This document shows, in pieces, positions 5,203 to 38,625 of a DNA stretch of 64,000 bases. Made by a program: the position numbers and the translations under genes. Position 1 is the stretch's first letter. Each line of letters begins with the position of its first letter. Below the pieces are notes generated by a model, which was given only the letters and a program-made list of their open reading frames with translations, made no database searches and was not told the origin of the DNA. This stretch comes from Candidatus Omnitrophota bacterium (lineage in GTDB: Bacteria; Omnitrophota; Gorgyraeia; Duberdicusellales; 4484-171): positions 67,116-131,115 of the forward strand of contig JBDRAN010000028.1 in the NCBI GenBank assembly GCA_043823745.1, in the 5' to 3' direction.

Positions 5203-6846
5203 ATGTCTAACTGGAAACAATTAGTTATTCTGCTTCTTATACTCATTCTGGGGCTTGCCTTGCGTATATATAATCTTGATTTTCCTTCCATCGGGTACCA
5301 TAACATGAAGGAAAACGAATCATTGAGTATTGCCCAGTTGATGCGCGCAAGCGGAGATTACACCAATCAGAAGGTCTATTTTGTCGACGGTCTTTCCGAT
5401 ACGCCGCGATATAATTCGGGAGGGCAATTACCCCTTGTCCCCTATCAGATACTGTTTGCCTGGAATATATGGGGTGAGAATCTTTGGGGACCGCGCCTCG
5501 TGAATGTCATATTCGGGATACTTTCCGTGGTGCTGCTCTGGTGTCTGGGGCGCCTGTTCTATAAAGACGCGTTATGCGCGCTTTCCGCGGCATTGTTGCT
5601 TGCTCTTATGCCGATTGCGGTTTTTTTCTCGCGGAATCTGCAGGCAGAAAGCCCCGCGCTCTTTTTTATGCTTGCCGCAACGCTGCTTGGCGCGCGCTTT
5701 GCCGCGTCCGGTAAGCATTATAATCTTTTTCTGTCCGGCATCTGTATGGTTATAAGCTGGCTTTATAAATTCAATTTTCTTATCGGAGTAGTACCGCTTT
5801 TATTTATGCTCCCGTACCGGCGTCTTTTTACGAGCTGGAAAAAAGGATTGTTGTTCTGCGTGTCGTTTGTGATTCCGTATGCCGGCGCGATTGTGTATGC
5901 GTATGCGCATAACCTTTTCTCCGGCGTGCCGGCACTGGGTGAGAGCATTATTGACGCCTGTATGCTTTCCTATTGGAAGGCCCACGGCGACATGATTCTG
6001 TGGTATGTTAAAGTTGAGAATTTTACGCTTGTGTTTGCCTTTCTTGCCGTTGCCGGTGTATGTCTTGCTTGTTTTAATCGTAGGAGTCTCTTTGATCGCT
6101 ATTGTATCGGATCTTTGGCCGCAGCTATTGTATACACAGGGGTCTATAGCGCCCAGATTTATCAAAATAACTTTTCCCAGATGCCTTTTGTTGTTATGGT
6201 GTGTTGTGCGGCAGTATACGCGGTGCAGTTTGTTGCCGCGGAACTGAAGCGTTTTTTTGGAAAGAATTTATTTATAGTCGTAATGATCGCCGCTATCGGG
6301 ATATCGTCACCGGCAATCTATGGCGCGTTGCAGCGGATGCAGGTAACATTTTTTGCCGGTCTTGATGCCGCGGGCGCGACCCTACAGGAGTTTTCAAAAC
6401 CACAGGAGCGCGTTTTCCTTTTAACCTACGCGCAAGGTAATGCCATTGCCCGTTACGCGCGCCGGTATATGGGTTGGCCGGCAACGCTTGCCGAGATGCA
6501 GGAAAAAGAAAAGCAATACGGAATACGCCTGATGTGTATTTATCCTGCCGATTACTACGGCGTATTGCAGAGGAATAATCCCGATATTGCCGCGTATATT
6601 AAAAATAATTATCGGGTCAAAGAGGCGGGCTTGATTGAGAAGCCCAATAATCTCGTTTATTTTATTCTGGAGAGGGGCGTTGAGGGGAAAACGATTGAAA
6701 ACTATCTTGAATCAGCCAAGATTCAGCTTATTCCGCGCGCGATCTATAAGGTCTGGGGTAATTATTTTTTCTTTTACGCCATACGGCCTGAGAATATTAT
6801 GCCTCAAGATGCTGCTGTCGTAGACGAAACAAAGACTCAAAAATAA
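5203..6846 (+). CDS. GT-C fold membrane glycosyltransferase (ArnT/PMT-like, GT39/GT83-type)
   Basis: N-terminal LILGLALRIYNLDFPSIGYHNMKENES is typical of ArnT/PMT_2 loop-1. About 12 predicted TM segments. Confidence 0.6.
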   Translation: MSNWKQLVILLLILILGLALRIYNLDFPSIGYHNMKENESLSIAQLMRASGDYTNQKVYFVDGLSDTPRYNSGGQLPLVPYQILFAWNIWGENLWGPRLVNVIFGILSVVLLWCLGRLFYKDALCALSAALLLALMPIAVFFSRNLQAESPALFFMLAATLLGARFAASGKHYNLFLSGICMVISWLYKFNFLIGVVPLLFMLPYRRLFTSWKKGLLFCVSFVIPYAGAIVYAYAHNLFSGVPALGESIIDACMLSYWKAHGDMILWYVKVENFTLVFAFLAVAGVCLACFNRRSLFDRYCIGSLAAAIVYTGVYSAQIYQNNFSQMPFVVMVCCAAVYAVQFVAAELKRFFGKNLFIVVMIAAIGISSPAIYGALQRMQVTFFAGLDAAGATLQEFSKPQERVFLLTYAQGNAIARYARRYMGWPATLAEMQEKEKQYGIRLMCIYPADYYGVLQRNNPDIAAYIKNNYRVKEAGLIEKPNNLVYFILERGVEGKTIENYLESAKIQLIPRAIYKVWGNYFFFYAIRPENIMPQDAAVVDETKTQK

Positions 6847-8297
6847 TGAGTACCGAGATTCTGGTCATTAATGAACCGTTTGTGAAGGATTTCTGCCGGA
6901 CACAGCGCTGGGCAGCGCGAACGCGCGGCAGGGTTCTGCGCGCGCCGGATTGGCTTGCCTACGCCACGGCGGTTCTTGAGCGCGCGGGGCATAAGGTTCG
7001 GCTTCTTGATATGGTGGCACGAGGAGAGAGTAAGGAAGATCTGCGCCGCATGGTGACCCAGGAAAAACCGCGCTTTGTCGTTTTGGATTCGACAACGCCT
7101 TCAATACATTCAGATATTGGCTGTGCCGCACTTGTAAAAGAGGCTTCTAATGCCCGCGTCATTATGGTCGGGCCGCATATTTCGGTCCTGCCGATTGAAA
7201 CCCTGCGTGCTGCGCGTGGCGTAGTTGATGTTGCCTGTATTGGCGAGTACGATTGTACGGTACGCGAGGTAATAGAAAATTTTAGTAACCTTGATGTTGT
7301 TCCGGGGATTGCATATTATAAGAACGGAGAAATCAGCACAACTGGAGCACGGCCGTTGCTTGAGGATCTTGATACGCTTCCGTTTCCGGCGTGGGAGCAT
7401 CTTGATTTAATGAAATATTTTGACGGTGGAAAACTGTATCCGTATATTGATATTATTTCAGGCCGCGGATGTCCTAACCAGTGTATTTTTTGTCTGTGGC
7501 CGCAGGTGATGCATGGTACGCGATATCGTTTTCGTAGGGTCACTCGTGTTGTCGATGAGATTGAGCACGATATTAAACTCTGCCCCCAGGTTGTGCGCGG
7601 CGGTGAATTCTTTTTTGAGGACGATACGTTTACCGCTGACCGCGCTCGTGCGATGCTCTTGTGTGAAGAGATTCTGCGGCGTAACCTAAAAATAACATTT
7701 TCGGTCAACGCGCGCGTTGATACCGCCGATAGCAGGATGTTTTCTCTAATGAAACGCGCGGGTTGCCGGGAACTATTGGTAGGTTTTGAATCAGGAGCAC
7801 AAGAGGTTCTTGATACCGCGCATAAAAATATCACGATAGAACAGTCACGTCAATTTATGCGTGAGGCGAAGAAAGCAGGCCTCGAGGTTCACGGTTGCTT
7901 TGTTATTGGCCTTCCCGGTGAAACGCAGGCGAGCGCGCAGAAAACGATAGACTTTGCTTTGTCTCTTGGCTGTGATACAATTCAATTTTCGGGCGCTGTT
8001 CCGTTTCCGGGGACACGCTTTTTTACGATGGCGCAGGAGGAGGGTTGGCTTACGACTACCGAATGGCAGGATTGGCTTGATGGAGGGGAGCAGAAGGGAG
8101 TTATCAGCTACCCGCATTTGTCACAACGTAAAATTGACTCTTTTGTCGATGAGGGTTTGCGGAAGTTTTATTTGAGGCCTTCCTATATTTTGAAGTTTTT
8201 ATTTAAGACAAGGAGCACTGCGGATTTGTATCGCAAATTACGCGGCGCAAAAAATTATCTCGGGTATTTATTTAGTTCTAAACAGAAAAGCGTGTAG
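6846..8297 (+). CDS. Cobalamin-binding (class B) radical SAM enzyme
   Basis: B12-binding-like N-domain, then GRGCPNQCIFC (CxxxCxxC). TAATG overlap with the upstream gene. Confidence 0.8.
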   Translation: MSTEILVINEPFVKDFCRTQRWAARTRGRVLRAPDWLAYATAVLERAGHKVRLLDMVARGESKEDLRRMVTQEKPRFVVLDSTTPSIHSDIGCAALVKEASNARVIMVGPHISVLPIETLRAARGVVDVACIGEYDCTVREVIENFSNLDVVPGIAYYKNGEISTTGARPLLEDLDTLPFPAWEHLDLMKYFDGGKLYPYIDIISGRGCPNQCIFCLWPQVMHGTRYRFRRVTRVVDEIEHDIKLCPQVVRGGEFFFEDDTFTADRARAMLLCEEILRRNLKITFSVNARVDTADSRMFSLMKRAGCRELLVGFESGAQEVLDTAHKNITIEQSRQFMREAKKAGLEVHGCFVIGLPGETQASAQKTIDFALSLGCDTIQFSGAVPFPGTRFFTMAQEEGWLTTTEWQDWLDGGEQKGVISYPHLSQRKIDSFVDEGLRKFYLRPSYILKFLFKTRSTADLYRKLRGAKNYLGYLFSSKQKSV

Positions 8298-8334: not shown

Positions 8335-8470
8335 CCGGAAGGGCTTGTTTGCCCCGTTTCTCCTGTGGGAGATTGAAACAATGAAGGCTTTAGTTACCGG
8401 AGGGGCTGGTTCACCCCGCCCCTCCTATGGGAGATTGGAATGATGAAGGCCTTGGTTACGGGAGGGGCGG
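8335..8470. repeat. About 2.5 tandem copies of a ~60-bp unit spanning hairpin + RBS + ATGAAGGC..GTTACCGGAGGGGC (duplicated 5' end of the epimerase gene)
   Basis: GTTACCGGA(A/G)GGGC...CTCCT(G/A)TGGGAGATTG(A/G)AA..ATGAAGGC recurs at 8328, 8389 and 8443. The middle copy encodes a 20-aa uORF, MKALVTGGAGSPRPSYGRLE. Confidence 0.7.
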
Positions 8471-9423
8471 GGTTCATCGGTTCTCATCTTGTAGAGCTCT
8501 TGCTCGCGCAAGGTATGCGCGTGTGCGCGATTGATAATTTAGCGACCGGAAGGCTCCATAATCTTAGCCAGGCCAGGCGTAATAAAAAATTTTCTTTTAT
8601 AAAGGTTGATGTTTCAGGTGGACGGAGCATAGGGAAATATTTTCGCGGCGTTGATTTTGTGTTCCATTTGGCGGCACTTGCGGATATTGTGCCCTCGGTA
8701 GTCGATCCGCTTACCTATCACACTGCGAACGTTAACGGAACGATCGCGGTGCTTGAGGCATCCCGGCAGGCGCGTGTTAAGAAATTTCTCTATGCTGCGT
8801 CAAGTTCTTGCTATGGCCTGGCAACCCTGCTTCCAACACCGGAAGACGCTCCCATTGCACCGCAATATCCGTATGCCTTGACGAAATGGTTGGGTGAGGA
8901 ATATGTGCGGCACTGGGCGCATGTGTATAAAATGCCGTTTGTTTCTTTGCGGCTTTTTAACGTATACGGGCCGCGCTCACGCACCAGCGGCGCCTATGGT
9001 GCGGTATTTGGTGTGTTTCTGGCGCAAAAACTGCACGGCAAACCTTTCACGGTTGTCGGTGATGGCACCCAGAAGCGTGATTTTATTTATGTGAGTGATG
9101 TGGCCGGCGCGTTTTATAGTGCCGCGGTCGCCAAAATTACCAATACGATTTTTAATGTTGGTTCAAGTGCCCCCCAGAGCATTAATACCTTGGTGCGATT
9201 GCTCCAGGGTCCTTTTGTGCATATTCCAAAACGGCCGGGTGAACCTGATTGCACCTGGGCTGATACGAGTAGAATTAAAAAAGAGTTAGGCTGGCAAGCG
9301 CAGGTAAGTTTTTCTGAGGGTGTACGCAGGATGCTTGCGCATATTGATTATTGGAAAACAGCTCCCGTTTGGACGCCGCAGCGGATTGCCAGGGCAACCG
9401 GCGATTGGTTTAAATATTTATGA
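8440..9423 (+). CDS. NAD-dependent sugar-nucleotide epimerase/dehydratase (extended SDR)
   Basis: VTGGAGFIGSHL Rossmann motif, YxxxK region and GDGTQKRDFIYVSDVA motif. Confidence 0.8.
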   Translation: MMKALVTGGAGFIGSHLVELLLAQGMRVCAIDNLATGRLHNLSQARRNKKFSFIKVDVSGGRSIGKYFRGVDFVFHLAALADIVPSVVDPLTYHTANVNGTIAVLEASRQARVKKFLYAASSSCYGLATLLPTPEDAPIAPQYPYALTKWLGEEYVRHWAHVYKMPFVSLRLFNVYGPRSRTSGAYGAVFGVFLAQKLHGKPFTVVGDGTQKRDFIYVSDVAGAFYSAAVAKITNTIFNVGSSAPQSINTLVRLLQGPFVHIPKRPGEPDCTWADTSRIKKELGWQAQVSFSEGVRRMLAHIDYWKTAPVWTPQRIARATGDWFKYL

Positions 9424-10955
9424 AACGCGACAGTTATTCAAAAATTAAGACTATTGAAACGCTTGGGGAAATCTGCGCGCAATTACGCCGGAAAGGGAAA
9501 AAAATTGTCCTTTGTCACGGAGTGTTCGATCTCCTGCATCCGGGACATATTAAGTATTTTGAGGCCGCCCGCAAAAAGGGAGATGTGCTCATTGTTACGG
9601 TTACCCGAGATGAGTATGTGAATAAAGGGCCGGGAAGGCCGATTTTTACTCATGCCTTGCGCGCCGAAAGCATTGCTGCGATCGAGTGTGTTGATTACGT
9701 CGCGGTCAATGAGTGGCCGACGGCGGTTGAGACAATTAAGAAACTTAAGCCTCATTGGTACGTGAAGGGCCGCGATTATGCCGATAAAAGCGCGGACCTT
9801 ACCGGGAAAATACATGACGAAGAACGGGCGATACGCTCGATCGGCGGCGACATACATTTTGTCGATGAGGCAACGTACAGCTCGTCGAGCCTTATCAATA
9901 CCTATCTTGCGCCATACCCTGCGGAAGCCAAAGATTTCTTCGCAAAGTTCAAAAAGAATCATGACGCCGCGTCCATCACGAATATTCTTAAAAGCGTCAA
10001 CGATATTAAGGTGCTGGTGATCGGCGACATTATTATCGATGAGTATCATTATTGCGTCGGCGTGGGCAAAGCCCAGAAGGATAACATTATCGCGACTAAA
10101 TTCTTAAACGAGGAAGTGTTTGCCGGAGGGGTGCTTGCCGCGGCAAATCACCTGGCGGGTTTTTGTAAGGATGTTACGCTGGTCAGCTGTGTTGGCGGAA
10201 AAAATAATTATCGCGATCTTATTGCCCGGCGCCTGAAGGCCAATATAAAAACAAAATTTTATAACCTTCCCGACGCTCATACGGTGGTCAAGCGCCGCTT
10301 CCTTGACCCTAATTTCCTGCATAAGCTTTTTGAGATCTGTTATCTTGAAGAACCGGGTATGATGCCCGCCGTCATCGAGAAGAAAATTTGTACGTACCTT
10401 GAGGCTCACCTGAAAGATTTCGATATGGTGTTGGTTGCCGACTTCGGCCATGGCATGATCACGCCGCGTATGGTTAAGCTTCTAACGCAAAAAGCAAAGT
10501 TTCTGTCGGTCAACGTGCAGACCAATAGCGCGAACCTCGGTTTTAATCTCATTACAAAATTCCCGCGCGCGGATTATATTTGTATCGATGAGCCGGAGTT
10601 GCGCCTTGCCTGTCATGACCGCGTCGGGAAGCTCGAGGGCCTGATAACCGGGATAAGCTCGAAGCTTTCCTGCGAGAGGATTATTATTACGCGCGGACAT
10701 CGCGGTTCGCTCGCCTACTCACGAAAAGAAGGCTTTTCACACATACCGGTATTTTCCACGCAGATCGTTGACCGGATCGGAGCCGGCGATGCTTACTTTT
10801 CCGTTACCTCCCCCTGCGTTTTTAAGAAGACGGCAATGGAAACGGTTGGTTTTATCGGCAATGCCGTCGGTGCCACAAAAGTATTGATCGTAGGTAACCG
10901 GTCCTCGGTTGAGCCGATCCCGCTGACTAAATATATTGTAACATTACTGCGATGA
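9420..10955 (+). CDS. Bifunctional heptose-1-phosphate nucleotidyltransferase / PfkB-family sugar kinase (HldE-like, domains in reversed order)
   Basis: N-terminus CHGVFDLLHPGHIKYFEAARKKGDVLIVTV (cytidylyltransferase-like HxGH). C-terminus ribokinase/PfkB with DRIGAGDAYFS. ATGA overlap with the neighbouring genes. Confidence 0.7.
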   Translation: MKRDSYSKIKTIETLGEICAQLRRKGKKIVLCHGVFDLLHPGHIKYFEAARKKGDVLIVTVTRDEYVNKGPGRPIFTHALRAESIAAIECVDYVAVNEWPTAVETIKKLKPHWYVKGRDYADKSADLTGKIHDEERAIRSIGGDIHFVDEATYSSSSLINTYLAPYPAEAKDFFAKFKKNHDAASITNILKSVNDIKVLVIGDIIIDEYHYCVGVGKAQKDNIIATKFLNEEVFAGGVLAAANHLAGFCKDVTLVSCVGGKNNYRDLIARRLKANIKTKFYNLPDAHTVVKRRFLDPNFLHKLFEICYLEEPGMMPAVIEKKICTYLEAHLKDFDMVLVADFGHGMITPRMVKLLTQKAKFLSVNVQTNSANLGFNLITKFPRADYICIDEPELRLACHDRVGKLEGLITGISSKLSCERIIITRGHRGSLAYSRKEGFSHIPVFSTQIVDRIGAGDAYFSVTSPCVFKKTAMETVGFIGNAVGATKVLIVGNRSSVEPIPLTKYIVTLLR

Positions 10956-31663: not shown

Positions 31664-33071
31664 GTTTCTTTATCCCCCGCAGTTTGGCTTTCGTAACCAG
31701 CCACGCTTCCTGCGCCATATAGCGGCCAAGCGTAAGATTCATGTTGCCCACAATCTCTTTGCAAAAATTTAACAGATAGTAAGTTTTTCCGTACACTGCG
31801 CGCCGCATGAATTCTCTGCGCTGCGCGAGGTCTGCGAAACTCCGCGTCCAGGGGAGCTTTATCCAGGGGATAAAGGAAGCAGTTGTGTTCCAGTCTCCAA
31901 TCAGGGTTTTATCTTGGCGCGCGTGCTCATAGATAGCGGTACCCGGATAAGGAACAAGGATGTTGATGTTGGCGGTTGTGGGTTTTAGCGCGGTTACTGC
32001 GGAGATAGTTTGACGTATCGATTCGTCGGTTTCCCCGGGAAACCCGATGATCCAGCCGGTGTTTAATTTAATTCCTGCATCAAGCACTATCCGGCCCGCG
32101 TCGATATTTGCTTTGACATTCGTCCCTTTCGCCATACGGTCAAGAATATTTTGTGAGCCCGACTCCATGCCTAGTGAAATAAGGTATGTTCCTGCTTGCC
32201 GGGCGCTTGCAACCAGTTCCCGGTCAATCGAGCCGGTCCGGCTTTTAAACCTGAACCTGATACGCAAGCCTTCTTTTTTTAATAACTCAAAAATACGCAT
32301 GGCTCGCTCGCGGTCGAAGGTGAAATTAGCATCAGAGACATCAAAAAGGCGTATTCCCTGTTTGTAGCGCGAATGGATCTCTGCTACGACGTTTTCCGCG
32401 CTGCGCGCGCGGTACGCGGTTGTGGTATTAGAGCAGAAGCGGCAGGTAAAGGGGCAGCCGCGGCTGGTGACAATAGTTTCTACGGGCCGCTCGCGCGTAA
32501 TGACGATATAATATTTTTTTTGCTCGTATTCACGCGCAAGGAGCTCGCGCGCCGGCAGAAGAAAGTCGTCGAGGGATGTGGTGTTTGTGCGTGCGGCGTT
32601 CTCGCGGATGAAGGCGGCCTGGCGCCAAAGCAGTCCGGGGACTCCTGAGATGTCACCACCGGGCAGTTTGTTGCAAAAGAGGCTGAAACTTTCCTCCGCT
32701 TCCGCCTTGAAAAGATAGTCGATTTCAGGACATTCAGCCAAGAGCGCTTGTCCTTTCGCGTGCGCGTGCGGGCCGCCGACAACCAGAATTATTTTGGGGA
32801 ACGCCGCTTTTATTCGTTTAATGAGCGCATAGGTAGGGATAAAAATTTCAGAGAAAAGCCCGATGCCGACGATATCGCAGCGGGCTTCGCGCAGTTTCTT
32901 GATGATGGCGGTATCGGTGAGATTGTGCGCGGCCGCATCAATGATGCGCACCGCGTGTTTATCGCGTTGTGCATACGCTGCCAGATAGAGGAGGCCTATC
33001 GGCGCAAAGCATTTTTGTGCTATTGCGCTGCCGCGTTCCTTGCCTCGGGGGTTTATCAGCGTAACATTCAT
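31647..33071 (-). CDS. Cobalamin-binding radical SAM enzyme
   Basis: SRGCPFTCRFCSN motif with an N-terminal B12-binding-like domain. Confidence 0.8.
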   Translation of the reverse strand: MNVTLINPRGKERGSAIAQKCFAPIGLLYLAAYAQRDKHAVRIIDAAAHNLTDTAIIKKLREARCDIVGIGLFSEIFIPTYALIKRIKAAFPKIILVVGGPHAHAKGQALLAECPEIDYLFKAEAEESFSLFCNKLPGGDISGVPGLLWRQAAFIRENAARTNTTSLDDFLLPARELLAREYEQKKYYIVITRERPVETIVTSRGCPFTCRFCSNTTTAYRARSAENVVAEIHSRYKQGIRLFDVSDANFTFDRERAMRIFELLKKEGLRIRFRFKSRTGSIDRELVASARQAGTYLISLGMESGSQNILDRMAKGTNVKANIDAGRIVLDAGIKLNTGWIIGFPGETDESIRQTISAVTALKPTTANINILVPYPGTAIYEHARQDKTLIGDWNTTASFIPWIKLPWTRSFADLAQRREFMRRAVYGKTYYLLNFCKEIVGNMNLTLGRYMAQEAWLVTKAKLRGIKKPTNSD

Positions 33072-34060
33072 TGTGGTTTATCCTTATGCGTGCGTGTCAC
33101 GCTGCTTAAGCCGCGGATAAAAGGAAATAAAAAAATAAGGCCAAAGATAACCGGTAAGAGATGCTCAACGAGCGAGACCAGTATTCCTGCGCTCATGAGC
33201 GTGGCAGCCGGGGCATACGCGGCGAATAAGAATATCATCAATCCTTCGCGTGTTCCCATACCGAGGATTGTCATCGGAAGAGCGCCGGCCAGCATGACGA
33301 AGGGAATAAAAACAAGAATTTGAGAAAAAGGAACGAAACATCCTACAGCGGTCATGAGGAGGTAGGTATTCAGAAATTCTGAAGATTGATAGACCAGCGA
33401 ATATCCGGCAAGTATTGCTTTTTCTTTTGCGGGTATTTCGCGCATGCCACTGGCTAACTCTTCGACGTGGCGTGTGTATCGGGGCAGCAAGCATTTGACG
33501 TAACGCACAAGGATGTCATAGGGGCGCGTAAAGAATATGAGCGCGGCCATGCCCAGGAGCGCTATGAAAGGAATGAGCTTTGGCATCGGTAAGGGCGCGA
33601 TGATCGTGCCGACAAGCATTATTCCGGCAAGCGTTAAGAGATTTAAGGCTTTATCGAGAACCAGGGAATGCGCTGCGCGGGCAACTGAGATATTCTTGCG
33701 TCGCGCCAGGTACGCGATCTTTAGGATCTCATGTGTTTTGAGGGGTAAGATAAGTTTCAACGGAAGGCAGCCGCTGCGGATCATCAGCGTTTCTTTAAAA
33801 GAGACCGTGCAGCCAAGGGCTGCAATGATCCTTTTCCACTTCGCGGTTCCCAGGAAAATATTTATTCCCAGGGAAATCAGGCAGCTTATAATCAGGGTCT
33901 CGCGCCGCGCCGCGCGAATAGTGTGTATGACGGCGCGGACATCGACTGCGCGCAGGAGCGCTGCGATAATAAGCGTTGATACGGCAACGCTCGCGGTCGT
34001 TATCAGGAAATTTTTTGTTTGAGCAGTCATGTTATAGCAAAAATGAACGCGCGTAATCAA
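33068..34060 (-). CDS. Flippase-like (lysylphosphatidylglycerol-synthase TM region / UPF0104) membrane protein
   Basis: 330 aa polytopic protein with the characteristic LLRAVDVRAV N-terminal segment. Confidence 0.5.
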   Translation of the reverse strand: MITRVHFCYNMTAQTKNFLITTASVAVSTLIIAALLRAVDVRAVIHTIRAARRETLIISCLISLGINIFLGTAKWKRIIAALGCTVSFKETLMIRSGCLPLKLILPLKTHEILKIAYLARRKNISVARAAHSLVLDKALNLLTLAGIMLVGTIIAPLPMPKLIPFIALLGMAALIFFTRPYDILVRYVKCLLPRYTRHVEELASGMREIPAKEKAILAGYSLVYQSSEFLNTYLLMTAVGCFVPFSQILVFIPFVMLAGALPMTILGMGTREGLMIFLFAAYAPAATLMSAGILVSLVEHLLPVIFGLIFLFPFIRGLSSVTRTHKDKPQ

Positions 34061-35027
34061 GCGCGGTTTGTATATCGGCGGTTAAGATCCTGTTTATCTC
34101 GATGCGCGATGCGCACCAGCAGTTCGGACAGTTTGTCTCGCTCAAATTTTCAAACGCTGCTCGTACGCCGTCGCGGATGCAATTGCCGGGTTTGGCCGGA
34201 ATTTTTTTTCGGCTGCAATTGAGCATGTCACCGTCCGGCTCAATCCGGCAGGTGAGGCGGCCGCTTGCACAGCGCAACGTTGATGCCTGGGGCCAGAGGC
34301 GCAGGTGTTTGAGCGCCGCACGCGAATTGCCGACTGAGGGATTTTTTTTCTTCTTCTGTTCAATGAGATAATCAATTGCCTGGTGTATTTGAGTGGTTGA
34401 AGGCGCTAGCATATGCGCATACGTACTTCCCAGCGCTATTTTCTCGACGGGTTGAACATAGACTTTTGCGTGGTAGCTTTGCGCAGCAGCAAGCACTGAG
34501 TCAAGATGCTTGCAGTTATGCTTGGTAAGAACGGTATAAAACGCGCACCGGATACCCCGGTTGGTTGCCGCGCTTATCGCTCCCATCACTTCATCCCATG
34601 ACCCTTGGCCGCGGATAGCATCATGGACTTCCCGAGGACCTTCGAGGCTTAGGTATAGGATATCAAGGTTTTTGAGCGCTTCTATTTTCTCTTTTACCAG
34701 CGCGCCGTTTGAGTTAAGTTTTACTTTGATGTTTTGATTGTGAGCGTGGGTTATGATTTCTTCGATATCGTCCCGCAGCAGGGGTTCTCCGCCGGTGAAA
34801 GAAATCATCATCGTCCCCATTTTTTTAAGGTCATCAATAACCGTTAGCACTTCTTTCCTGGTCAGTTCAGCGTTTTTTTTATCCCAGAGCCGGCAGTAGA
34901 GGCAGTGCCGGTTACAGTGGTAGGTAAGCGCCCAGCCGACCGCCAGCGGAAATTTCTTCATAAAGGCTTTTGCTTTAATGATGGCGGCTGCTCCCGCGGT
35001 AATCGTTTTTATTTTTTTTATGTTCAT
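34032..35027 (-). CDS. Radical SAM/SPASM-domain enzyme
   Basis: YHCNRHCLYCRLW motif. C-terminal CSRKK...CPNCWC cluster. Confidence 0.7.
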   Translation of the reverse strand: MNIKKIKTITAGAAAIIKAKAFMKKFPLAVGWALTYHCNRHCLYCRLWDKKNAELTRKEVLTVIDDLKKMGTMMISFTGGEPLLRDDIEEIITHAHNQNIKVKLNSNGALVKEKIEALKNLDILYLSLEGPREVHDAIRGQGSWDEVMGAISAATNRGIRCAFYTVLTKHNCKHLDSVLAAAQSYHAKVYVQPVEKIALGSTYAHMLAPSTTQIHQAIDYLIEQKKKKNPSVGNSRAALKHLRLWPQASTLRCASGRLTCRIEPDGDMLNCSRKKIPAKPGNCIRDGVRAAFENLSETNCPNCWCASRIEINRILTADIQTALDYARSFLL

Positions 35028-37147
35028 TAGTTTTTAACTCTTTTTGTCGCCTGGATACAAATGTGCCGTAACGGCGTACGACGAAAGGGGATGCCGATTT
35101 CGGCGTCAAAAGGCGTCATGAGCGCGCCCCCGGTGTCAAGGGAATGCGTTTCTATATCGGTAAAGCCATTCTCATGAAGCGCTGCGTTGATCGTTGCATG
35201 AGAAAAAAAGTGTACCATTGGTTTTTGAGCCACGCGCGCCAGTTGCGTCAATATTCCATGAAACATAAAGGTAAGCATTTCAAGCTCGTGGGGGCAGACT
35301 GCTTCGATAATGAATATCTTTCCGGCGTTTCGGAGCACTCGCTGCGCTTCATCGAGCGTGGCGCTCAAATTGTGCCTGGTCGATGCGGCAGTGTCGCCGG
35401 CTATATGGTGTAGCGTATGTAAGAGGAGGGCGTGATCGAACGTGTTGTTGCGTAGGCCAAGATTTTCGCTTTTTGTTGCCAGCGCCAGGGCGGCCGAGGC
35501 GTGTCTTTTAAGCGACTCAGGGGATGTATCGGCGCATACCAGCATCGAGATGGCATGGGTGCGGTAATCGGTGGTTGTTCCTGCGCCGATATCAAGAACG
35601 TTCCCAAAAAGTTTTCCCTCGAGGGCCTTGAGCGTGGCGGCTATGAGCGGCGCCTGAAGCCGGACTCTTGTTTCCTTAAGGCGGTCTGCCCGGCTATCAA
35701 AATACTCTCTCGTGCTTATGGGCCCTGCCAAGAATATTCTTTTGAGCGCGTTCGTTATAGCGCGTGGGTAGTATCGGGCGTAAATATAAAAACGCCTATC
35801 GTGCTGCTTGAGCGCTTGAAGAGCCATGGCAATAACGGTAAAAGGGCGCGGGATAAAGCGAAACAGGCCTACGAGTCTGCCCCGGATAATAAAGCGGTTT
35901 AGGGGCCGCGGTATCAGGGGAAGCATCTTGAAATAATTTTGAAATGATCTATTGACCCGGCGCATCCGGCCCTCACCCGGCACCCCGGAAAAAAAATCAT
36001 TGTCCGGGCCGTCAGGGCTTTTTGCTTCAGAAGGAGCCTTGCTATAGAGCGCGGAACCCGGATACACGGTAAGGTTATGGCACTTAATACGGTTTAAGCC
36101 GCGCAGCTGAGTGTAGTGTTGGGCTGCCTGTAGCAGGTCATCTTCGGTTTCGCCCGGGATACCAAAGAGATGATCGATGTCATAGGAAATCCCAAGGCGT
36201 TCGCAGAGCGCAAACGCTTCAAGGAGTGTCCGCGTGCCTTCCGGTCTATGGAGCACTTCTTTTTTGAGACGCTCGTTGAAGGTTTGGACTCCAAATTCGA
36301 CGCAGTAACAGTTACTCTCTTTGAGGAGGTGCGCCGTGTCTTGGGTAAAGGTGTCGGCCTTGGCAAAACACTTATAAGGAATACCTATGTTTTCCCGGTA
36401 GAGGGCAAGATAGCGCGCAAGCCAGGCGGGGTCGGCAGTAAACACCGCATCTTTATAAATAATTTCTCGTGGTTTAAAGTTGGCGCGCGCCCGGATTAAC
36501 TCAGCAATAACCGTTTCGGGGCTCCTGCGGCGGATATACGCTTGTCCGAAATTCTCTTTACGCAGGGTTTCCTGGCAATATGCGCACGCTGCCGCGCATC
36601 CTTTACCGGTATAGATGAGGTAGCTGTCGCTAAAATTAACAAAGCGGCTAAAGAGTGTTTTATCCGGTGCCGGCAGCGCGTCTAAGTCTGCCAGCTCCTC
36701 GAAACGATAGATATCTTTTTTTGAAGTGAAGATCCTGTCGTCAAAGAAACGCGTTGCAGCGTATTCAGGCTCTCCGGCAAGAATGTAATCATAGACCGTC
36801 TCGCCCGGTATCACGCGCGCATCCGTAAAAAGTATGGTGGGCATTTTCGGGCGCTCTTCTTTAAGCGAAGCCGCAAGACGTTTGTTCCATTGTCTGCGGG
36901 TTGCGCCATCAAGAAAGATCGCGGCGTCCGGGTTTTGGGAGATGATCTCGCGGAGCGTTTTCTTTTCGTCTGCGAAGATCCGGGCAAATCGCGGTAGCGA
37001 GATGATATTGTCGCTCGTGCCGAAAATATCTTGATCGTATACGAGGCCTGCGCGATGACCTCTTGCGCGCGCGATGGCAGAGAGGTATTCAAGCGAGATG
37101 CTATCGTAAACATGGTAGCGATTTTTATAGGCGAATACAAGTTTCAT
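35027..37147 (-). CDS. Cobalamin-binding radical SAM enzyme fused to a C-terminal class I SAM methyltransferase domain
   Basis: KGCAAACAYCQE motif. C-terminal ~220 aa carry VLDIGAGTTTD (motif I). Confidence 0.75.
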   Translation of the reverse strand: MKLVFAYKNRYHVYDSISLEYLSAIARARGHRAGLVYDQDIFGTSDNIISLPRFARIFADEKKTLREIISQNPDAAIFLDGATRRQWNKRLAASLKEERPKMPTILFTDARVIPGETVYDYILAGEPEYAATRFFDDRIFTSKKDIYRFEELADLDALPAPDKTLFSRFVNFSDSYLIYTGKGCAAACAYCQETLRKENFGQAYIRRRSPETVIAELIRARANFKPREIIYKDAVFTADPAWLARYLALYRENIGIPYKCFAKADTFTQDTAHLLKESNCYCVEFGVQTFNERLKKEVLHRPEGTRTLLEAFALCERLGISYDIDHLFGIPGETEDDLLQAAQHYTQLRGLNRIKCHNLTVYPGSALYSKAPSEAKSPDGPDNDFFSGVPGEGRMRRVNRSFQNYFKMLPLIPRPLNRFIIRGRLVGLFRFIPRPFTVIAMALQALKQHDRRFYIYARYYPRAITNALKRIFLAGPISTREYFDSRADRLKETRVRLQAPLIAATLKALEGKLFGNVLDIGAGTTTDYRTHAISMLVCADTSPESLKRHASAALALATKSENLGLRNNTFDHALLLHTLHHIAGDTAASTRHNLSATLDEAQRVLRNAGKIFIIEAVCPHELEMLTFMFHGILTQLARVAQKPMVHFFSHATINAALHENGFTDIETHSLDTGGALMTPFDAEIGIPFRRTPLRHICIQATKRVKN

Positions 37148-38625
37148 ATTAGTTTTTCGGCTTTCACGTGATCGTTGATCCGCCGGCGCTCCTCGTGGTA
37201 CGCAACAAACCGGTCGTCGCGCGTCGAGGTGTTTTCCTGGCCCAAGAGCATTCCAAGGTAGGCGGAGAGTTTTCGTTTAAACTCAGGGAGCGAACGCACC
37301 GCCAGAGCGGATTTTAATAGAAATGAGGGCCGGGAATGAAAACGTACATACGCCCATTTTGTGAGCCGGTCGATCTGCTCGTTGGTTAGCTGCGTCCAGG
37401 GCCGTTCCAGGACGCGGTCAACTTCATTGCCGAGCACCCATTCTTTCCAGAAATCTTGTCCGGTTTGCTCGACGAGATTTTCCCAGAGCGGCGTACGTGG
37501 TTTAGCCAGGCATTTTGAGAATTGCACATAATCAAGATCTAGTTTTTCGGCAAAGGCGACGGTTTGTCGCACGGTCTGTACGGTTTCGCCCGGCGCTCCG
37601 ACGAGAAAGAAACCGAGGGCTTTTATGCCCAGGGCCTTGGTTGCGGCGATGGTGTCTTGTATCTGCGCGAGCGTGATCCCTTTGGCCACGGTATCAAGAA
37701 TTTTCTGTGAGCCCGACTCGATGCCGTAGTAGATCCTTCCGCACCCGGCTTGACTCATTTCGCGCAGGAGCTGAGCATCTATGTCTATTCGCGAGCGGCA
37801 GGCCCAGAGGATATCGAGGTTGCGTTCCCTCATGAGACGGCAAATCGCGATTGTCCGGCTTTTGTCGGCAGTAAAGTCGTAGTCAAAAATATCGATTTCC
37901 CGGACCCCGTAACGGTGGTAGCATTCAGTCATCTCATCGACGACGGTCAGGGGTGAGCGCGGGTTGTAGGCTGTTCTGCCTGCTTCACAGAAAAAACATC
38001 CCCGGGGGCAGCCAAGGCTGGTTACCATGACCGTGAAGTTTTTACGCTCCGTGGGAAACTCGGCGTAGAGATCATTGGGTAACAAGTCCCGCGCAGGAGC
38101 GGGGAATTGCTCAAAGGAAACTTCCCGGGGAGGATTAAGCCGTATCTGCCCGGCTTCCTTGTAGACCAGTCCGACTACCTCGCTGAGTTTTCGTTTTCCC
38201 TGGAGCGCCTCCAGGAGTTGCGGCACGGTTTCCAGAGCATGTTCGATAACGCCATAGTCTATTTCAGGATGGCTGATGGATTCTTTCGGATAGACACGCA
38301 GGTTGTAGCCGCCGATCACCACCGGGACATCGCATTCTTTCTTAAGGATTCGTATCCATTCCAGCGTATCGCGGAACATGTAGGTGGTCATCATGAAGCC
38401 CATAATATCCGGCTTAAACGCGCGTAGGCGTTCCGCTACCTGCTGTGGAGAGAGGCGTAACGTGCGCGCGTCAATGAGCGTTACATCGTGACCGGCGTCC
38501 CGGGCGATTGAAGCGACCCATGCCAGGCTTAAAGGGGGGAACATCCCGAAGTATTTTTGCACTATGCGTAAATTCTCTTCATGGATTTTGTACTTAAAAG
38601 GGGTAAATATGAGCGCGAGCCTCAT
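37144..38625 (-). CDS. Cobalamin-binding radical SAM enzyme
   Basis: SLGCPRGCFFCEAGR motif. Confidence 0.8.
   Translation of the reverse strand: MRLALIFTPFKYKIHEENLRIVQKYFGMFPPLSLAWVASIARDAGHDVTLIDARTLRLSPQQVAERLRAFKPDIMGFMMTTYMFRDTLEWIRILKKECDVPVVIGGYNLRVYPKESISHPEIDYGVIEHALETVPQLLEALQGKRKLSEVVGLVYKEAGQIRLNPPREVSFEQFPAPARDLLPNDLYAEFPTERKNFTVMVTSLGCPRGCFFCEAGRTAYNPRSPLTVVDEMTECYHRYGVREIDIFDYDFTADKSRTIAICRLMRERNLDILWACRSRIDIDAQLLREMSQAGCGRIYYGIESGSQKILDTVAKGITLAQIQDTIAATKALGIKALGFFLVGAPGETVQTVRQTVAFAEKLDLDYVQFSKCLAKPRTPLWENLVEQTGQDFWKEWVLGNEVDRVLERPWTQLTNEQIDRLTKWAYVRFHSRPSFLLKSALAVRSLPEFKRKLSAYLGMLLGQENTSTRDDRFVAYHEERRRINDHVKAEKLI

What the first reader, a model, noticed from the sequence alone, without database searches (positions are those of the whole stretch)
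6846..38625. Ten radical SAM enzymes (six cobalamin-binding) embedded in one sugar locus
The ten lie at 6846, 11872, 17226, 19175, 25239, 30392, 31647(-), 34032(-), 35027(-) and 37144(-). Class B (B12) radical SAM enzymes typically C-methylate unactivated carbons, and SPASM types make thioether or C-C crosslinks or epimerise. Six class B enzymes beside glycosyltransferases suggest multiple C-methylations or unusual radical modifications of the glycan, or of a peptide. That density is rare outside antibiotic clusters.
Basis: partly seen in the sequence, partly recalled or inferred. Interest (0 to 1): 0.7.

Follow-up and report, generated by a model that had tools for sequence, protein, structure and literature searches.

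The report
Radical-SAM-rich surface glycan locus
An uncultured Omnitrophota bacterium packs ten different radical SAM enzymes into a 38-kb protein- and polysaccharide-glycosylation locus built from cassettes that recur in other anaerobic phyla, which points to widespread, uncharacterised radical chemistry on cell-surface sugars.

Summary
Exactly ten ORFs in the window are radical SAM (rSAM) enzymes. All ten lie between 6.8 and 38.6 kb, all carry CxxxCxxC, and none lies in the other 32 kb. Five, not six, have a recognisable B12-binding domain; the sixth has a degenerate N-terminal domain. Three have SPASM domains. The ten share only 21-32% identity and none reaches the curated cutoff of any named family, so they are not HpnJ, BchE or MiaB.

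The window comes from a Candidatus Omnitrophota MAG. The locus is a mosaic of five cassettes, and each cassette occurs on its own elsewhere.
- A: a core STT3-GT2-(GT-C)-B12 rSAM-GT2. Its rSAM is 60-73% identical across more than ten anaerobic phyla.
- B: a heptose-like nucleotide-sugar cassette with two SPASM rSAMs, fully conserved in an anammox Brocadiales polysaccharide locus.
- C: a B12 rSAM plus a polytopic membrane protein.
- D: an NDP-6-deoxyhexose cassette with one B12 and one SPASM rSAM.
- E: a GT9-led operon with four rSAMs.

Relatives carry up to 7 rSAMs in 16-21 kb. I found no precursor peptide, RRE domain or lipid-synthesis gene. The closest solved structures are sugar enzymes: AprD4 and DesII.

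Best reading: radical tailoring of nucleotide- or lipid-linked sugars of a surface glycan, which is transferred by an STT3-type oligosaccharyltransferase and other GT-C enzymes. The actual chemistry, such as C-methylation, is not established.

The parts
1495..4008 (+). STT3-type oligosaccharyltransferase (837 aa, about 10 or more TM segments, WWDFG motif)
   Evidence: Pfam STT3 115 bits plus STT3-PglB_core. WWDFG seen in the translation. TM count. It scores far below the PglB and archaeal STT3 NCBIfam cutoffs.
4012..5154 (+). GT2a: AglJ-like polyprenyl-phosphate hexose synthase-type GT2 with a C-terminal TM domain
   Evidence: Pfam GT2. NCBIfam AglJ 165 bits, below the cutoff of 325. Homologues carry GT2_TM_C. 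It is adjacent to R1 in most of the 83 loci.
5203..6846 (+). GT-C glycosyltransferase (PMT_2/ArnT-like, about 10 TM)
   Evidence: Pfam PMT_2 and PMT. TM count.
6846..8297 (+). R1: B12-domain rSAM, HpnJ-like and AprD4-like; the conserved core enzyme
   Evidence: PF04055 plus PF02310. HpnJ model 366 bits, below the cutoff of 577. 60-73% identical orthologues in more than ten phyla. AF2 model pLDDT 83.6; best fold match AprD4, TM 0.73-0.77.
8440..9423 (+). SDR epimerase/dehydratase (cassette B)
   Evidence: Pfam Epimerase and GDP_Man_Dehyd. NCBIfam GalE, LegB and heptose-epimerase hits are all below cutoff.
9420..10955 (+). HldE-like bifunctional nucleotidyltransferase plus PfkB sugar kinase (domain order reversed relative to E. 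coli HldE)
   Evidence: Pfam CTP_transf_like at 32-143 and PfkB at 197-496. NCBIfam HldE 157 bits, below the cutoff of 521.
10952..11533 (+). GmhA-like SIS sugar-phosphate isomerase
   Evidence: Pfam SIS_2. gmhA model 102 bits, below the cutoff of 209.
11872..12936 (+). R2: rSAM with a partial SPASM (single auxiliary cluster) domain, DesII-like fold
   Evidence: PF04055 plus PF13186. Family of 355-aa proteins at 54-60% identity. Invariant C-terminal Cys are C267, C285, C328 and C332. Best PDB match by sequence and by fold is DesII, then BlsE.
12698..13351 (+). NUDIX hydrolase (the true start is probably downstream of 12698)
   Evidence: Pfam NUDIX at residues 85-208. The L084 orthologue is 147 aa.
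13506..14171 (+). Class I SAM methyltransferase
   Evidence: Pfam Methyltransf_11/25/23.
14177..15908 (+). Split transketolase (N subunit 14177-14977, C subunit 14970-15908)
   Evidence: Pfam Transketolase_N; Transket_pyr plus Transketolase_C.
15943..16791 (+). RmlD-like NDP-4-keto-sugar reductase
   Evidence: Pfam RmlD_sub_bind 202 bits. rmlD model 202 bits, below the cutoff of 224.
17226..18368 (+). R3: rSAM/SPASM, paralogue of R2 (32% identity); likely start 17286
   Evidence: PF04055 plus PF13186. BLAST against R2. Orthologue in Brocadiales L084 scores 587 bits.
18365..19099 (+). GT2b glycosyltransferase (last gene of cassette B)
   Evidence: Pfam GT2. Conserved after R3 in L084.
19175..20653 (+). 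R4: B12-domain rSAM
   Evidence: PF02310 73.6 bits plus PF04055. Nearest solved structure is TokK. R4-like genes lie next to the mem20631 homologue and GT9 in L004 and L005.
20631..22205 (+). Polytopic membrane protein (about 11 TM), no Pfam family; candidate GT-C or polymerase
   Evidence: No Pfam or NCBIfam hit. TM count. Homologues sit in R1 loci L001, L004, L005 and L013.
22202..23131 (+). GT2c: the GT2 normally found immediately downstream of R1
   Evidence: Pfam GT2 and Glyco_tranf_2_3. MftF-like 138 bits, below cutoff. Follows R1 in most related loci.
23157..25124 (+). TMTC-like protein: N-terminal domain of about 8 TM with a WDD motif, plus C-terminal TPR repeats
   Evidence: Pfam TPR at residues 415-640. 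TM segments and sequence. Homologues follow cassette E in L088, L089, L092, L093 and L095.
25155..26738 (+). R5: B12-domain rSAM (likely start 25239)
   Evidence: PF04055, and PF02310 at the cutoff. Nearest solved structure is QCMT 9ccb. Orthologues score 757 bits in L010 and 752 bits in L093.
26929..28074 (+). GT4 glycosyltransferase
   Evidence: Pfam Glycos_transf_1 and Glyco_transf_4.
28231..29262 (+). NDP-hexose 4,6-dehydratase-like SDR
   Evidence: Pfam Epimerase. dTDP-glucose dehydratase model 149 bits, below cutoff.
29473..30213 (+). Sugar-1-phosphate nucleotidyltransferase
   Evidence: Pfam NTP_transferase. AglF- and RmlA-like.
30392..31663 (+). R6: rSAM/SPASM with an N-terminal extension of about 95 aa
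   Evidence: PF13186 45.8 bits plus PF04055. Orthologue in L010 scores 769 bits; the order GT4-SDR-NTP-R6 is conserved in L010 and L018.
31647..33071 (-). R7: B12-domain rSAM (last gene of operon E)
   Evidence: PF04055 83.5 bits plus PF02310 62 bits. BchE model 173 bits, below the cutoff of 481. Orthologue in L088 and L093 scores 526 bits.
33068..34060 (-). LPG_synthase_TM / flippase-like membrane protein
   Evidence: Pfam PF03706. TIGR00374 flippase-like domain above cutoff.
34032..35027 (-). R8: rSAM with a Cys-rich C-terminus (no SPASM hit)
   Evidence: PF04055 93.6 bits plus Fer4_12. MftC- and PTO1314-like, below cutoffs. Cys positions. No SPASM hit at E<=1.
35027..37147 (-). R9: rSAM with a degenerate Rossmann-like N-terminal domain, fused to a class I methyltransferase
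   Evidence: PF04055 plus Methyltransf_11. Alignment to R4. No PF02310 hit. Homologues are about 470 aa without the methyltransferase; the fusion is unique to this protein.
37144..38625 (-). R10: B12-domain rSAM
   Evidence: PF04055 plus PF02310 62 bits. 34 metagenome loci at 55-77% identity, usually with GT9 upstream and R9 downstream.
38622..39899 (-). GT9 heptosyltransferase-like glycosyltransferase (first gene of operon E)
   Evidence: Pfam Glyco_transf_9. Heptosyltransferase II model 65 bits, below the cutoff of 135.

Best explanation
The region from about 1.5 to 39.9 kb is one composite cell-surface glycosylation locus of an Omnitrophota bacterium.

Shown:
- It encodes an STT3-type oligosaccharyltransferase with an intact WWDxG motif.
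- It encodes three further GT-C-like polytopic proteins: a PMT_2 protein, a TMTC-like TPR protein and an unassigned protein of about 11 TM.
- It encodes six cytoplasmic glycosyltransferases: three GT2-family enzymes plus the AglJ-like GT2a, one GT4 and one GT9.
- It encodes a flippase-like protein.
- It encodes two nucleotide-sugar pathways. One is heptose-like (split transketolase, GmhA-like isomerase, HldE-like kinase/nucleotidyltransferase, SDR, RmlD-like reductase, methyltransferase, NUDIX). The other is NDP-6-deoxyhexose-like (nucleotidyltransferase plus a 4,6-dehydratase-like SDR).
- The ten rSAM genes are distributed among these cassettes and are co-inherited with them in other genomes.

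Inferred:
- The rSAMs are tailoring enzymes acting on nucleotide-activated or polyprenyl-phosphate-linked sugars.
- R2 and R3, and probably R6 and R8, do DesII/BtrN/BlsE-type redox chemistry on NDP-sugars: dehydrogenation, elimination, decarboxylation or epimerisation.
- R4 and R5 are the best candidates for cobalamin-dependent C-methylation.
- R1, and perhaps R7 and R10, do HpnJ/AprD4-type rearrangement or dehydration, or methylation, on a membrane-anchored sugar made by the adjacent AglJ-like GT2.
- The finished glycan is flipped and then transferred in the periplasm to proteins by STT3 and by the GT-C enzymes.
For: The STT3 WWDFG motif is, and the TM topology of four GT-C-like proteins is.

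Cassette conservation:
- GT2a-R1-GT2c occurs in nearly all of the 83 R1-anchored loci from more than ten phyla. In distant phyla it sits with further GT2/GT4 genes and a large polytopic protein.
- Cassette B is complete in a Brocadiales MAG, next to Wzz, Wzy_C and Poly_export genes. It is partial in two other polysaccharide loci.
- Cassette D is present in L010 and L018.
- Cassette E is present in L088, L093 and many metagenome contigs.

Evidence on the rSAMs:
- They share only 21-32% identity, so they are distinct functions and not recent duplicates.
- The nearest solved relatives are sugar enzymes. R1 matches AprD4 by sequence (1e-26) and by fold (TM 0.73-0.77). R2 matches DesII and BlsE by sequence and by fold.
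- R1's best family model is HpnJ, an enzyme proposed to act on a lipid-linked glucosamine (PMC13459092).
- The genes of operon E overlap each other by 4-29 nt, which is consistent with translational coupling.
Against: - No biochemical or structural-chemical data exist for any of these ten families. Every named-family score is below its curated cutoff, so the assignment of chemistry rests on remote homology.
- Cobalamin binding is not demonstrated. R1, R7 and R10 are closest to AprD4, which does not bind cobalamin.
- The glycan acceptor (protein, LPS or lipid) is unknown. The GT9 and flippase-like genes of operon E would equally fit an LPS-core or glycolipid pathway.
- The R1 triad occurs in many phyla without STT3, so R1's product need not be an N-glycan.
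- Genome-wide rSAM density for this MAG could not be measured.
Confidence: 0.65

Rival explanations
1. The rSAMs modify lipids and not glycans: membrane lipid tails or head groups, or lipid A/LPS core. This would follow HpnJ, calditol synthase, and ladderane or GDGT enzymes. The glycosyltransferases would then build a glycolipid head group that is radically rearranged.
For: - R1's best model is HpnJ, at 366 bits.
- HpnJ and Cds act on lipid-linked sugars (PMC13459092).
- The ladderane-type TIGR04072 model gives weak hits.
- Operon E has a GT9 LPS-heptosyltransferase-like gene and an LPG_synthase_TM protein, and L088 adds a GDSL lipase.
- The R1 triad occurs without STT3 in Desulfobacterota.
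- R8 gives a weak hit to GDGT-MAS 7tol.
Against: - The locus has no fatty-acid, isoprenoid, squalene/hopene or lipid A genes.
- No HpnI, HpnK or HpnH hits were found.
- Cassettes B and D are plainly nucleotide-sugar pathways with their own glycosyltransferases.
- This reading overlaps the main one if the lipid is simply the polyprenyl carrier.
Confidence: 0.15
2. The locus is a secondary-metabolite cluster that makes a diffusible oligosaccharide or aminoglycoside-like antibiotic, tailored by rSAMs as in the gentamicin, apramycin or avilamycin pathways.
For: - Characterised sugar-acting rSAMs (AprD4, DesII, BlsE, GenK/GenD1) all come from antibiotic pathways.
- rSAM density is high.
Against: - The locus has STT3, three other GT-C-like membrane proteins and a flippase-like protein, and its relatives have Wzz/Wzy/Poly_export neighbours. 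These are hallmarks of cell-surface glycoconjugate assembly.
- There is no 2-deoxy-scyllo-inosose synthase, aminotransferase set, resistance gene or exporter.
- The core cassette is conserved at 60-73% identity across more than ten phyla, which is atypical for an antibiotic cluster.
Confidence: 0.07
3. The SPASM and B12 rSAMs mature a ribosomal peptide (RiPP), which is then glycosylated.
For: - SPASM and class B rSAMs are common RiPP maturases.
- NCBIfam lists weak hits to ApyD, the sactipeptide and ranthipeptide maturases, and MftC.
- R8's nearest solved relatives include CteB and SkfB.
Against: - All of those hits are far below the cutoffs.
- No PqqD/RRE domain is present in any of the ten.
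- The N-terminal extensions are too short for an RRE, apart from the extension of about 95 aa in R6, which gives no domain hit.
- The only intergenic ORFs are a four-helix-bundle protein (TIGR02436) and ORFs that are artefacts of tandem repeats.
- There is no peptidase or ABC exporter.
- The genes of operon E overlap, leaving no room for a precursor gene.
- Related loci show no conserved small gene next to the SPASM genes.
Confidence: 0.04
4. The clustering is incidental: unrelated housekeeping rSAMs happen to lie near sugar genes in a genome that is generally rSAM-rich.
For: - Anaerobic candidate phyla encode many rSAMs (general knowledge).
- Genome-wide density could not be measured here.
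Against: - The window has 10 rSAMs in 31.8 kb against 0 in the other 32 kb.
- None matches a housekeeping family above its cutoff.
- The same rSAM-glycosyltransferase adjacencies are conserved across phyla and in independent metagenomes.
Confidence: 0.02

Closest known systems
HpnJ (hopanoid-associated B12-domain rSAM, TIGR03471) and calditol synthase Cds
   Same: R1 aligns end to end with the HpnJ model (residues 18-477 against model positions 18-469 of 472, 366 bits). Like HpnJ, it sits beside glycosyltransferases that could make a membrane-anchored sugar. HpnJ and Cds are proposed to ring-contract a lipid-linked hexose (PMC13459092).
   Different: The score is below the 577-bit cutoff. The locus has no SHC, HpnH, HpnI or HpnK. 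The neighbouring GT2s are AglJ-like and MftF-like, not HpnI-like. The family is spread through phyla and contexts that are unrelated to hopanoids.
AprD4 (apramycin 1,2-diol dehydratase, PDB 6fd2)
   Same: It is the best solved match for R1, R7 and R10 by sequence, and for R1 by fold over the full length (TM 0.73-0.77). It acts on a sugar ring of an aminoglycoside.
   Different: Identity is only 23-24%, and the NCBIfam AprD4 model scores 111 bits against a cutoff of 500. AprD4 does not bind cobalamin. R1, R7 and R10 do score on the Pfam B12-binding model. There is no AprD3-like partner reductase next to them.
DesII and BlsE (nucleotide-sugar and nucleoside-sugar rSAMs)
   Same: They are the best sequence and fold matches for R2. 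R2 and R3 are likewise embedded among NDP-sugar biosynthesis genes.
   Different: Identity is 16-17%, and the DesII model scores 51 bits against a cutoff of 450. R2 has a C-terminal four-Cys auxiliary-cluster domain. The associated pathway is heptose-like and not desosamine.
Cobalamin-dependent sugar C-methylases of antibiotic pathways (GenK, GenD1, Fms7, MoeK5)
   Same: They share the domain architecture (B12-binding domain plus rSAM) and a sugar context.
   Different: The nearest solved methylases to R4 and R5 are TokK and QCMT, which act on a carbapenem and on a protein. The present genes are in a cell-surface glycan locus and not in an antibiotic cluster.
Archaeal Agl and bacterial Pgl N-glycosylation loci (AglB/PglB with AglJ-type GT2)
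   Same: An STT3-family enzyme with WWDxG lies next to an AglJ-like GT2 and further glycosyltransferases, sugar-nucleotide genes and a SAM methyltransferase.
   Different: The STT3 is only remotely related to both the PglB model (38 bits) and the archaeal STT3 model (66 bits). As far as I know, no described Agl or Pgl locus contains rSAM enzymes; a literature search for radical SAM together with AglB and N-glycan found nothing.
ADP-/GDP-heptose pathway (GmhA, HldE/HddA, GmhB, HldD)
   Same: Cassette B has GmhA-like, HldE-like and HldD-like genes, and the locus also has a GT9 heptosyltransferase-like gene.
   Different: All scores are below the equivalog cutoffs. The HldE domain order is reversed. 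There is no GmhB. The cassette always includes a split transketolase and one or two SPASM rSAMs, so the product is probably a different higher-carbon or modified sugar.

Membership tests
Radical SAM superfamily | PF04055 core domain with a CxxxCxxC cluster motif | tested here: met
   All ten hit PF04055 at 39-94 bits against a cutoff of 29.5. All ten carry CxxxCxxC.
Class B (cobalamin-dependent) rSAM | N-terminal B12-binding (Rossmann) domain, PF02310 | tested here: met
   Met for R1, R4, R5 (exactly at the cutoff), R7 and R10. The fold is confirmed for R1. Not met for R9: there is no hit at E<=1 and the GGPH motif is lost.
Class B (cobalamin-dependent) rSAM | Actual cobalamin binding and use | not testable with these tools
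   AprD4 and ArsL homologues carry a related domain but bind no cobalamin (PMC12931638). R1, R7 and R10 are closest to AprD4.
SPASM/twitch rSAM | C-terminal PF13186 domain with Cys ligands for auxiliary Fe-S cluster(s) | tested here: met
   R2, R3 and R6 hit PF13186. The R2 family conserves only four C-terminal Cys, so probably one auxiliary cluster. R8 gives no PF13186 hit although it has 7 C-terminal Cys.
HpnJ (TIGR03471) | Score above the curated cutoff, plus a hopanoid gene context (SHC, HpnH, HpnI, HpnK) | tested here: not met
   R1 scores 366 bits against 577. There are no hopanoid genes in the window or in related loci, and no HpnI hit for the neighbouring GT2s.
   Best BchE score is 173 against 481 (R7). 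Best HpnR score is 112 against 650. MiaB/RimO scores at most 62 against 251.
   The best score is 136 bits, for R1.
RiPP biosynthetic cluster | Precursor peptide gene, an RRE/PqqD domain or partner, and a leader peptidase or exporter | tested here: not met
   No such domains were found. The intergenic ORFs are a four-helix-bundle protein or repeat artefacts. Related loci have no conserved small ORF.
STT3/PglB/AglB oligosaccharyltransferase | PF02516 multi-TM domain and the WWDxG catalytic motif | tested here: met
   PF02516 scores 115 bits and the core domain 28 bits. WWDFG is present. There are about 10 TM segments. Activity and acceptor sequon cannot be tested here. The protein scores below the cutoffs of both the PglB and the archaeal STT3 NCBIfam models.
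ADP-heptose biosynthesis (GmhA-HldE-GmhB-HldD) | All four activities, with equivalog-level scores | tested here: not met
   GmhA-like scores 102 against 209 and HldE-like 157 against 521, with swapped domains. No GmhB is present. The SDR's best match is GalE-like.
DesII (TIGR04426) / BlsE (TIGR04466) | Score above the curated cutoff | tested here: not met
   R2 scores 51 against 450 and 39 against 400. The resemblance is at fold level only.

The most novel reading that the evidence does not exclude
The R1 family is conserved at 60-73% identity in Omnitrophota, Margulisbacteria, Elusimicrobia, Sumerlaeota, Fibrobacterota, Caldiserica, Nitrospirota and Desulfobacterota, and it always lies between two GT2 genes. 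On this reading it is an HpnJ/Cds-like enzyme that radically rearranges a membrane-anchored hexose, for example by ring contraction to a carbocyclic sugar. Together with the other nine rSAMs (C-methylases and DesII-like enzymes) it would produce a protein-linked N-glycan containing sugar types not yet described in any organism. That would make radical chemistry a routine part of surface-glycan biosynthesis in strict anaerobes.
Probability: 0.2. Interest if true: 0.85.

Novelty: new variant of a known kind. Interest (0 to 1): 0.66.

Why it matters
Radical SAM enzymes that act on sugars are known almost only from antibiotic pathways and from hopanoid or calditol lipids. This locus, and the recurrent cassettes it is built from, suggest that strict anaerobes routinely use such chemistry to build cell-surface glycans. 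These lineages include Omnitrophota, Elusimicrobia, anammox Planctomycetes, Sumerlaeota and Desulfobacterota.

It offers three concrete targets for enzymology:
- the highly conserved GT2-R1-GT2 triad;
- the 'SDR-HldE-SIS-rSAM-transketolase' nucleotide-sugar cassette;
- the GT9-R10-R9-R8 operon.

It may also bear on 'methylated' or unidentified sugar residues seen by mass spectrometry in such organisms. One example is the unassigned 174-Da residue of the Kuenenia S-layer glycan (PMC5088730), where O-methyl and C-methyl groups cannot be told apart. This is a lead only.

It would also extend bacterial STT3-type glycosylation to a new phylum with an unusual glycan.

Tried and rejected
- An exact-sequence look-up of the window's R1 found no record. 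The source was identified instead through a 100%-identical NCBI protein.
- Literature searches found nothing that describes this locus type. The term sets were: Omnitrophota + radical SAM; radical SAM + oligosaccharyltransferase + B12-binding; radical SAM + heptose + SPASM; radical SAM + N-glycan + AglB; and cobalamin rSAM + polysaccharide + C-methylation.
- I tested whether the GT2 partners of R1 are HpnI-like. They are not.
- I tested R9 for a cryptic B12 domain and R8 for a cryptic SPASM domain at relaxed thresholds. Neither was found.
- I looked for precursor-like small ORFs in every intergenic gap longer than 60 nt. I found only repeat-derived ORFs and a four-helix-bundle protein.
- Rfam and tRNA scans of the window were empty.
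- I compared the large unannotated membrane proteins next to R1 in two distant phyla. They are unrelated to each other and to the window's proteins.
- I did not model the 524-aa membrane protein, because no alignment could be supplied and both prediction slots went to R1 and R2.
- Genome-wide rSAM density of the source MAG could not be obtained.

Full report
**1. Observation**

PF04055 scores are 39-94 bits against a cutoff of 29.5. Each carries a canonical CxxxCxxC motif. A sweep of every ORF of at least 80 aa in all six frames, using the ten as phmmer queries plus a motif search, finds exactly these ten and no others. There are therefore ten in 31.8 kb and none in the other 32 kb of the window.

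For assumed background densities of 0.2, 0.5 and 1 rSAM per 10 kb, P(>=10) is 2e-9, 7e-6 and 2e-3. These background values are my assumption, because the whole genome was not available.

Domain assignments need correcting in several places:
- The B12-binding domain PF02310 is present in five proteins. I label them R1 (6846), R4 (19175), R5 (25155, scoring exactly at the cutoff), R7 (31647-) and R10 (37144-).
- The sixth candidate, R9 (35027-37147-), has an N-terminal domain that aligns with that of R4, but the GGPH motif is replaced. It gives no PF02310 hit even at E<=1.
- R9 also carries a C-terminal class I methyltransferase domain. Among 196 homologues this fusion occurs only in this protein.
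- SPASM (PF13186) is present in R2 (11872), R3 (17226) and R6 (30392).
- R8 (34032-) has seven C-terminal cysteines but no SPASM hit.

**2. What the ten enzymes are not**

Against NCBIfam, none reaches the curated cutoff of any family.
- R1's best match is HpnJ, at 366 bits against a cutoff of 577.
- R7's best match is BchE, at 173 against 481.
- MiaB/RimO, HpnR, the ladderane-type TIGR04072 model and all RiPP maturase models score far below their cutoffs.

It is not fulfilled.

The ten share only 21-32% identity with one another. They are therefore ten different enzymes and not a recent amplification.

**3. Source and surroundings**

R1, R2 and R9 are each 100% identical to proteins of a Candidatus Omnitrophota MAG, on a contig of 136 kb.

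The genes around and between the rSAMs are listed.
- An STT3-type oligosaccharyltransferase with an intact WWDFG motif.
- An AglJ-like GT2 with a C-terminal TM domain.
- A PMT_2 GT-C enzyme.
- A heptose-like set: an SDR, an HldE-like nucleotidyltransferase plus kinase with reversed domain order, a GmhA-like isomerase, NUDIX, a methyltransferase, a split transketolase and an RmlD-like reductase.
- Two further GT2s.
- A membrane protein of about 11 TM with no family assignment.
- A protein with about 8 N-terminal TM segments, a WDD motif and C-terminal TPR repeats, which is TMTC-like.
- A GT4, a 4,6-dehydratase-like SDR and a sugar-1-phosphate nucleotidyltransferase.
- On the opposite strand, a GT9 heptosyltransferase-like gene and a flippase-like LPG_synthase_TM protein.

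Hydropathy analysis gives four GT-C-like polytopic proteins in the locus.

Plus-strand genes run from 1495 to 31663. Minus-strand genes run from 39899 to 31647. The two units converge and overlap by 17 nt.

**4. The locus is a mosaic of conserved cassettes**

I fetched 80 genome loci anchored on R1 and compared their ORFs with all window proteins.

*Cassette A* is GT2a-R1-GT2c. R1 orthologues are 60-73% identical in the following groups:
- Omnitrophota
- Margulisbacteria
- Elusimicrobia/Endomicrobia
- Sumerlaeota
- Chitinispirillaceae
- Caldiserica
- Nitrospirota
- Desulfomonilaceae/Syntrophales

The triad is present almost everywhere. STT3 and PMT_2 are added in Omnitrophota, Margulisbacteria and Chitinispirillaceae. 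In two distant phyla the triad sits with more GT2/GT4 genes and a polytopic protein of about 730 aa that has no family. In the window, GT2c is separated from R1 by about 14 kb, which holds cassettes B and C.

*Cassette B* is SDR-HldE-GmhA-R2-NUDIX-TKN-TKC-RmlD-R3-GT2b.
- It is completely conserved in a Brocadiales (anammox) MAG, inside a Wzz/Wzy_C/Poly_export polysaccharide locus. There R2 scores 471 bits and R3 587 bits.
- It is partly conserved in an Omnitrophota capsule-type locus and in a third genome.
- The R2 family is length-invariant at 355 aa and 54-60% identical.

*Cassette C* is R4 plus the 11-TM protein. It recurs with a GT9 gene in L004 and L005; L013 has the GT9 and 11-TM genes with an R10-like rSAM instead.

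*Cassette D* is R5-GT4-SDR-NTP-R6. It is conserved in L010, where R5 scores 757 bits and R6 769 bits, and partly in L018.

*Cassette E* is GT9-R10-R9-R8-LPGs-R7.
- In L088 and L093 it is conserved directly after cassette A. It is followed there by the TMTC-like TPR gene and, in L088, by the same AAA_22 and secretin genes that follow the locus in the window.
- 34 metagenome contigs carry R10 orthologues, usually with GT9 upstream and R9 downstream.

**5. Density in relatives**

Among the 83 R1-anchored loci, each 21 kb or shorter, the number of rSAM ORFs per locus was distributed as follows:

| rSAM ORFs per locus | Loci |
|---|---|
| 1 | 49 |
| 2 | 17 |
| 3 | 8 |
| 4 | 5 |
| 5 | 4 |

L088 and L093 have 7 rSAMs in 16-19 kb, L087 has 7 in 21 kb, and L108 has 6. 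The window is therefore the largest example seen, but it is not an oddity. rSAM-rich glycan loci are a trait of these lineages. This contradicts the statement that such density is rare outside antibiotic clusters.

**6. Evidence on substrates**

- R1's nearest solved relative is AprD4, the rSAM diol dehydratase that acts on the aminoglycoside paromamine. The sequence E-value is 1e-26.
- An AlphaFold model of R1, built from 24 orthologues, has pLDDT 83.6. Its best full-length fold match is also AprD4, at TM 0.73-0.77. TsrM, QCMT, OxsB, CysS and TokK follow.
- R7 and R10 also match AprD4 best.
- R4 matches TokK best. R5 matches 9ccb best, which is the MCR glutamine C-methylase QCMT.
- R2's best sequence and fold matches are DesII, which acts on a TDP-sugar, and BlsE.
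- The R2 family conserves four C-terminal cysteines (C267, C285, C328, C332). This implies one auxiliary cluster, as in twitch-type sugar dehydrogenases.

These resemblances are remote, at 16-24% identity. They support 'acts on sugars' as a class, not any specific reaction. A recent review notes that AprD4-like proteins carry a Rossmann-like domain without binding cobalamin (PMC12931638). 'Cobalamin-binding' is therefore a domain-level statement only.

**7. Alternatives**

*RiPP.* No PqqD/RRE domain, peptidase or exporter is present. The intergenic ORFs are a four-helix-bundle protein (TIGR02436) or translations of tandem repeats. The operon E genes overlap. No conserved small ORF appears in relatives. 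I rate this reading at about 0.04.

*Lipid modification.* This is suggested by the HpnJ resemblance, the GT9 and flippase-like genes, and the occurrence of the R1 triad without STT3. No lipid-synthesis genes are present, and cassettes B and D are clearly nucleotide-sugar pathways. I rate it at about 0.15. It overlaps the main reading if the lipid is the polyprenyl carrier.

*Diffusible antibiotic.* This is disfavoured by the GT-C, STT3, flippase and Wzy contexts, and by conservation across phyla. I rate it at about 0.07.

*Chance clustering.* This is excluded by the conserved synteny.

**8. Most likely mechanism**

The gene content and its conservation are shown. The chemistry is inferred.

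- Two nucleotide sugars are made. One is a heptose-like or higher-carbon sugar from a transketolase product, via the isomerase, the kinase/nucleotidyltransferase and the SDR and reductase steps. The other is an NDP-6-deoxyhexose.
- They are tailored by SPASM/twitch rSAMs (R2, R3, R6) and B12-type rSAMs (R4, R5), together with ordinary methyltransferases.
- The AglJ-like GT2 starts a polyprenyl-phosphate-linked sugar.
- R1 modifies that sugar by a rearrangement or dehydration of the HpnJ/AprD4 type, or by methylation.
- GT2c, GT2b, GT4 and GT9 extend it.
- Operon E adds further radical tailoring.
- The flippase-like protein translocates the product.
- STT3 and the PMT_2, TMTC-like and unassigned GT-C proteins transfer glycans to periplasmic or surface acceptors.

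Candidate acceptors are suggested only by neighbourhood. In L001 pilin-like N_methyl genes lie directly upstream of STT3. In the window and in L088 secretin and AAA_22 genes lie downstream.

**9. Novelty**

Searches of the held literature found no description of rSAM enzymes in STT3/Agl/Pgl-type or Wzy-type surface-glycan loci. Sugar-acting rSAMs are known from antibiotic pathways and from hopanoid or calditol lipids.

I therefore classify this as a new variant of a known kind: a glycan-assembly locus whose tailoring layer is radical chemistry. It contains at least three conserved, uncharacterised enzyme cassettes that are directly testable.

One lead was not tested. The S-layer O-glycan of the anammox bacterium Kuenenia contains methylated HexNAc and an unidentified 174-Da residue (PMC5088730). 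Anammox relatives carry cassette B.

**10. Verdict**

Glycan tailoring is supported, the peptide reading is not, and C-methylation is unproven. Interest is 0.66.

Noticed in passing
window 55497-61056: Four HEPN / minimal-nucleotidyltransferase (MNT) toxin-antitoxin-like gene pairs lie here: 55497/55904, 58186/58545, 59847 with an unassigned 59551, and 60300/60622. They are arranged around a TnpB (IS605 OrfB, Cas12f-like TNB domain) gene at 56202-57422. GC content drops to 41-44% in this region.
   Followed up: partly
window 11678-11802; also 807-888 and 8331-8476: A perfect 27-bp x 4.6 tandem repeat lies in the gap between the GmhA-like gene and R2. A looser 27-bp repeat lies upstream of STT3. 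A 62-bp x 2.3 repeat duplicates the ribosome-binding site and first codons of the SDR gene at 8440. These could be slippage or phase-variation sites inside a surface-glycan locus.
   Followed up: no
window 40737-54448; L088 15788-21422; L001 511-2440: The glycan locus is followed by an AAA_22 (ExeA/MshM-like) ATPase, coiled-coil proteins, two secretins and a 1301-aa coiled-coil/TPR protein. The same TPR-AAA_22-secretin set follows the locus in L088. In L001 three N_methyl (pilin-like) genes lie directly upstream of STT3. This may indicate a link between STT3 glycosylation and a pilus or secretion apparatus.
   Followed up: no
window 6846-8297 (R1), residues 16-39 and Cys 17, 93, 273, 307, 351: Across 24 orthologues from several phyla, R1 keeps an invariant arginine-rich N-terminal motif (FCRTQRWAARTRGRVLRAPDWLAY). 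AlphaFold predicts this stretch with low confidence. R1 also keeps five invariant cysteines in addition to the CxxxCxxC motif. These could mark an extra metal site or a membrane/lipid-binding element.
   Followed up: no
window 35027-37147 (-): R9 is fused to a C-terminal Methyltransf_11 domain, and the fusion occurs only in this MAG. All other family members are about 470 aa and lack it. It could be a real fusion or an assembly or frameshift artefact.
   Followed up: partly
window 16851-17198: A four-helix-bundle protein of family TIGR02436 (75 bits, cutoff 24) is inserted between the RmlD-like gene and R3. It is absent from the otherwise colinear Brocadiales cassette in L084.
   Followed up: no
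L078 7612-9804; L028 13471-15684; window 20631-22205: R1 cassettes in different phyla each include a large polytopic membrane protein (11-14 TM, 524-737 aa) with no Pfam family. These proteins are not detectably similar to one another. They may be novel GT-C enzymes or polymerases.
   Followed up: partly
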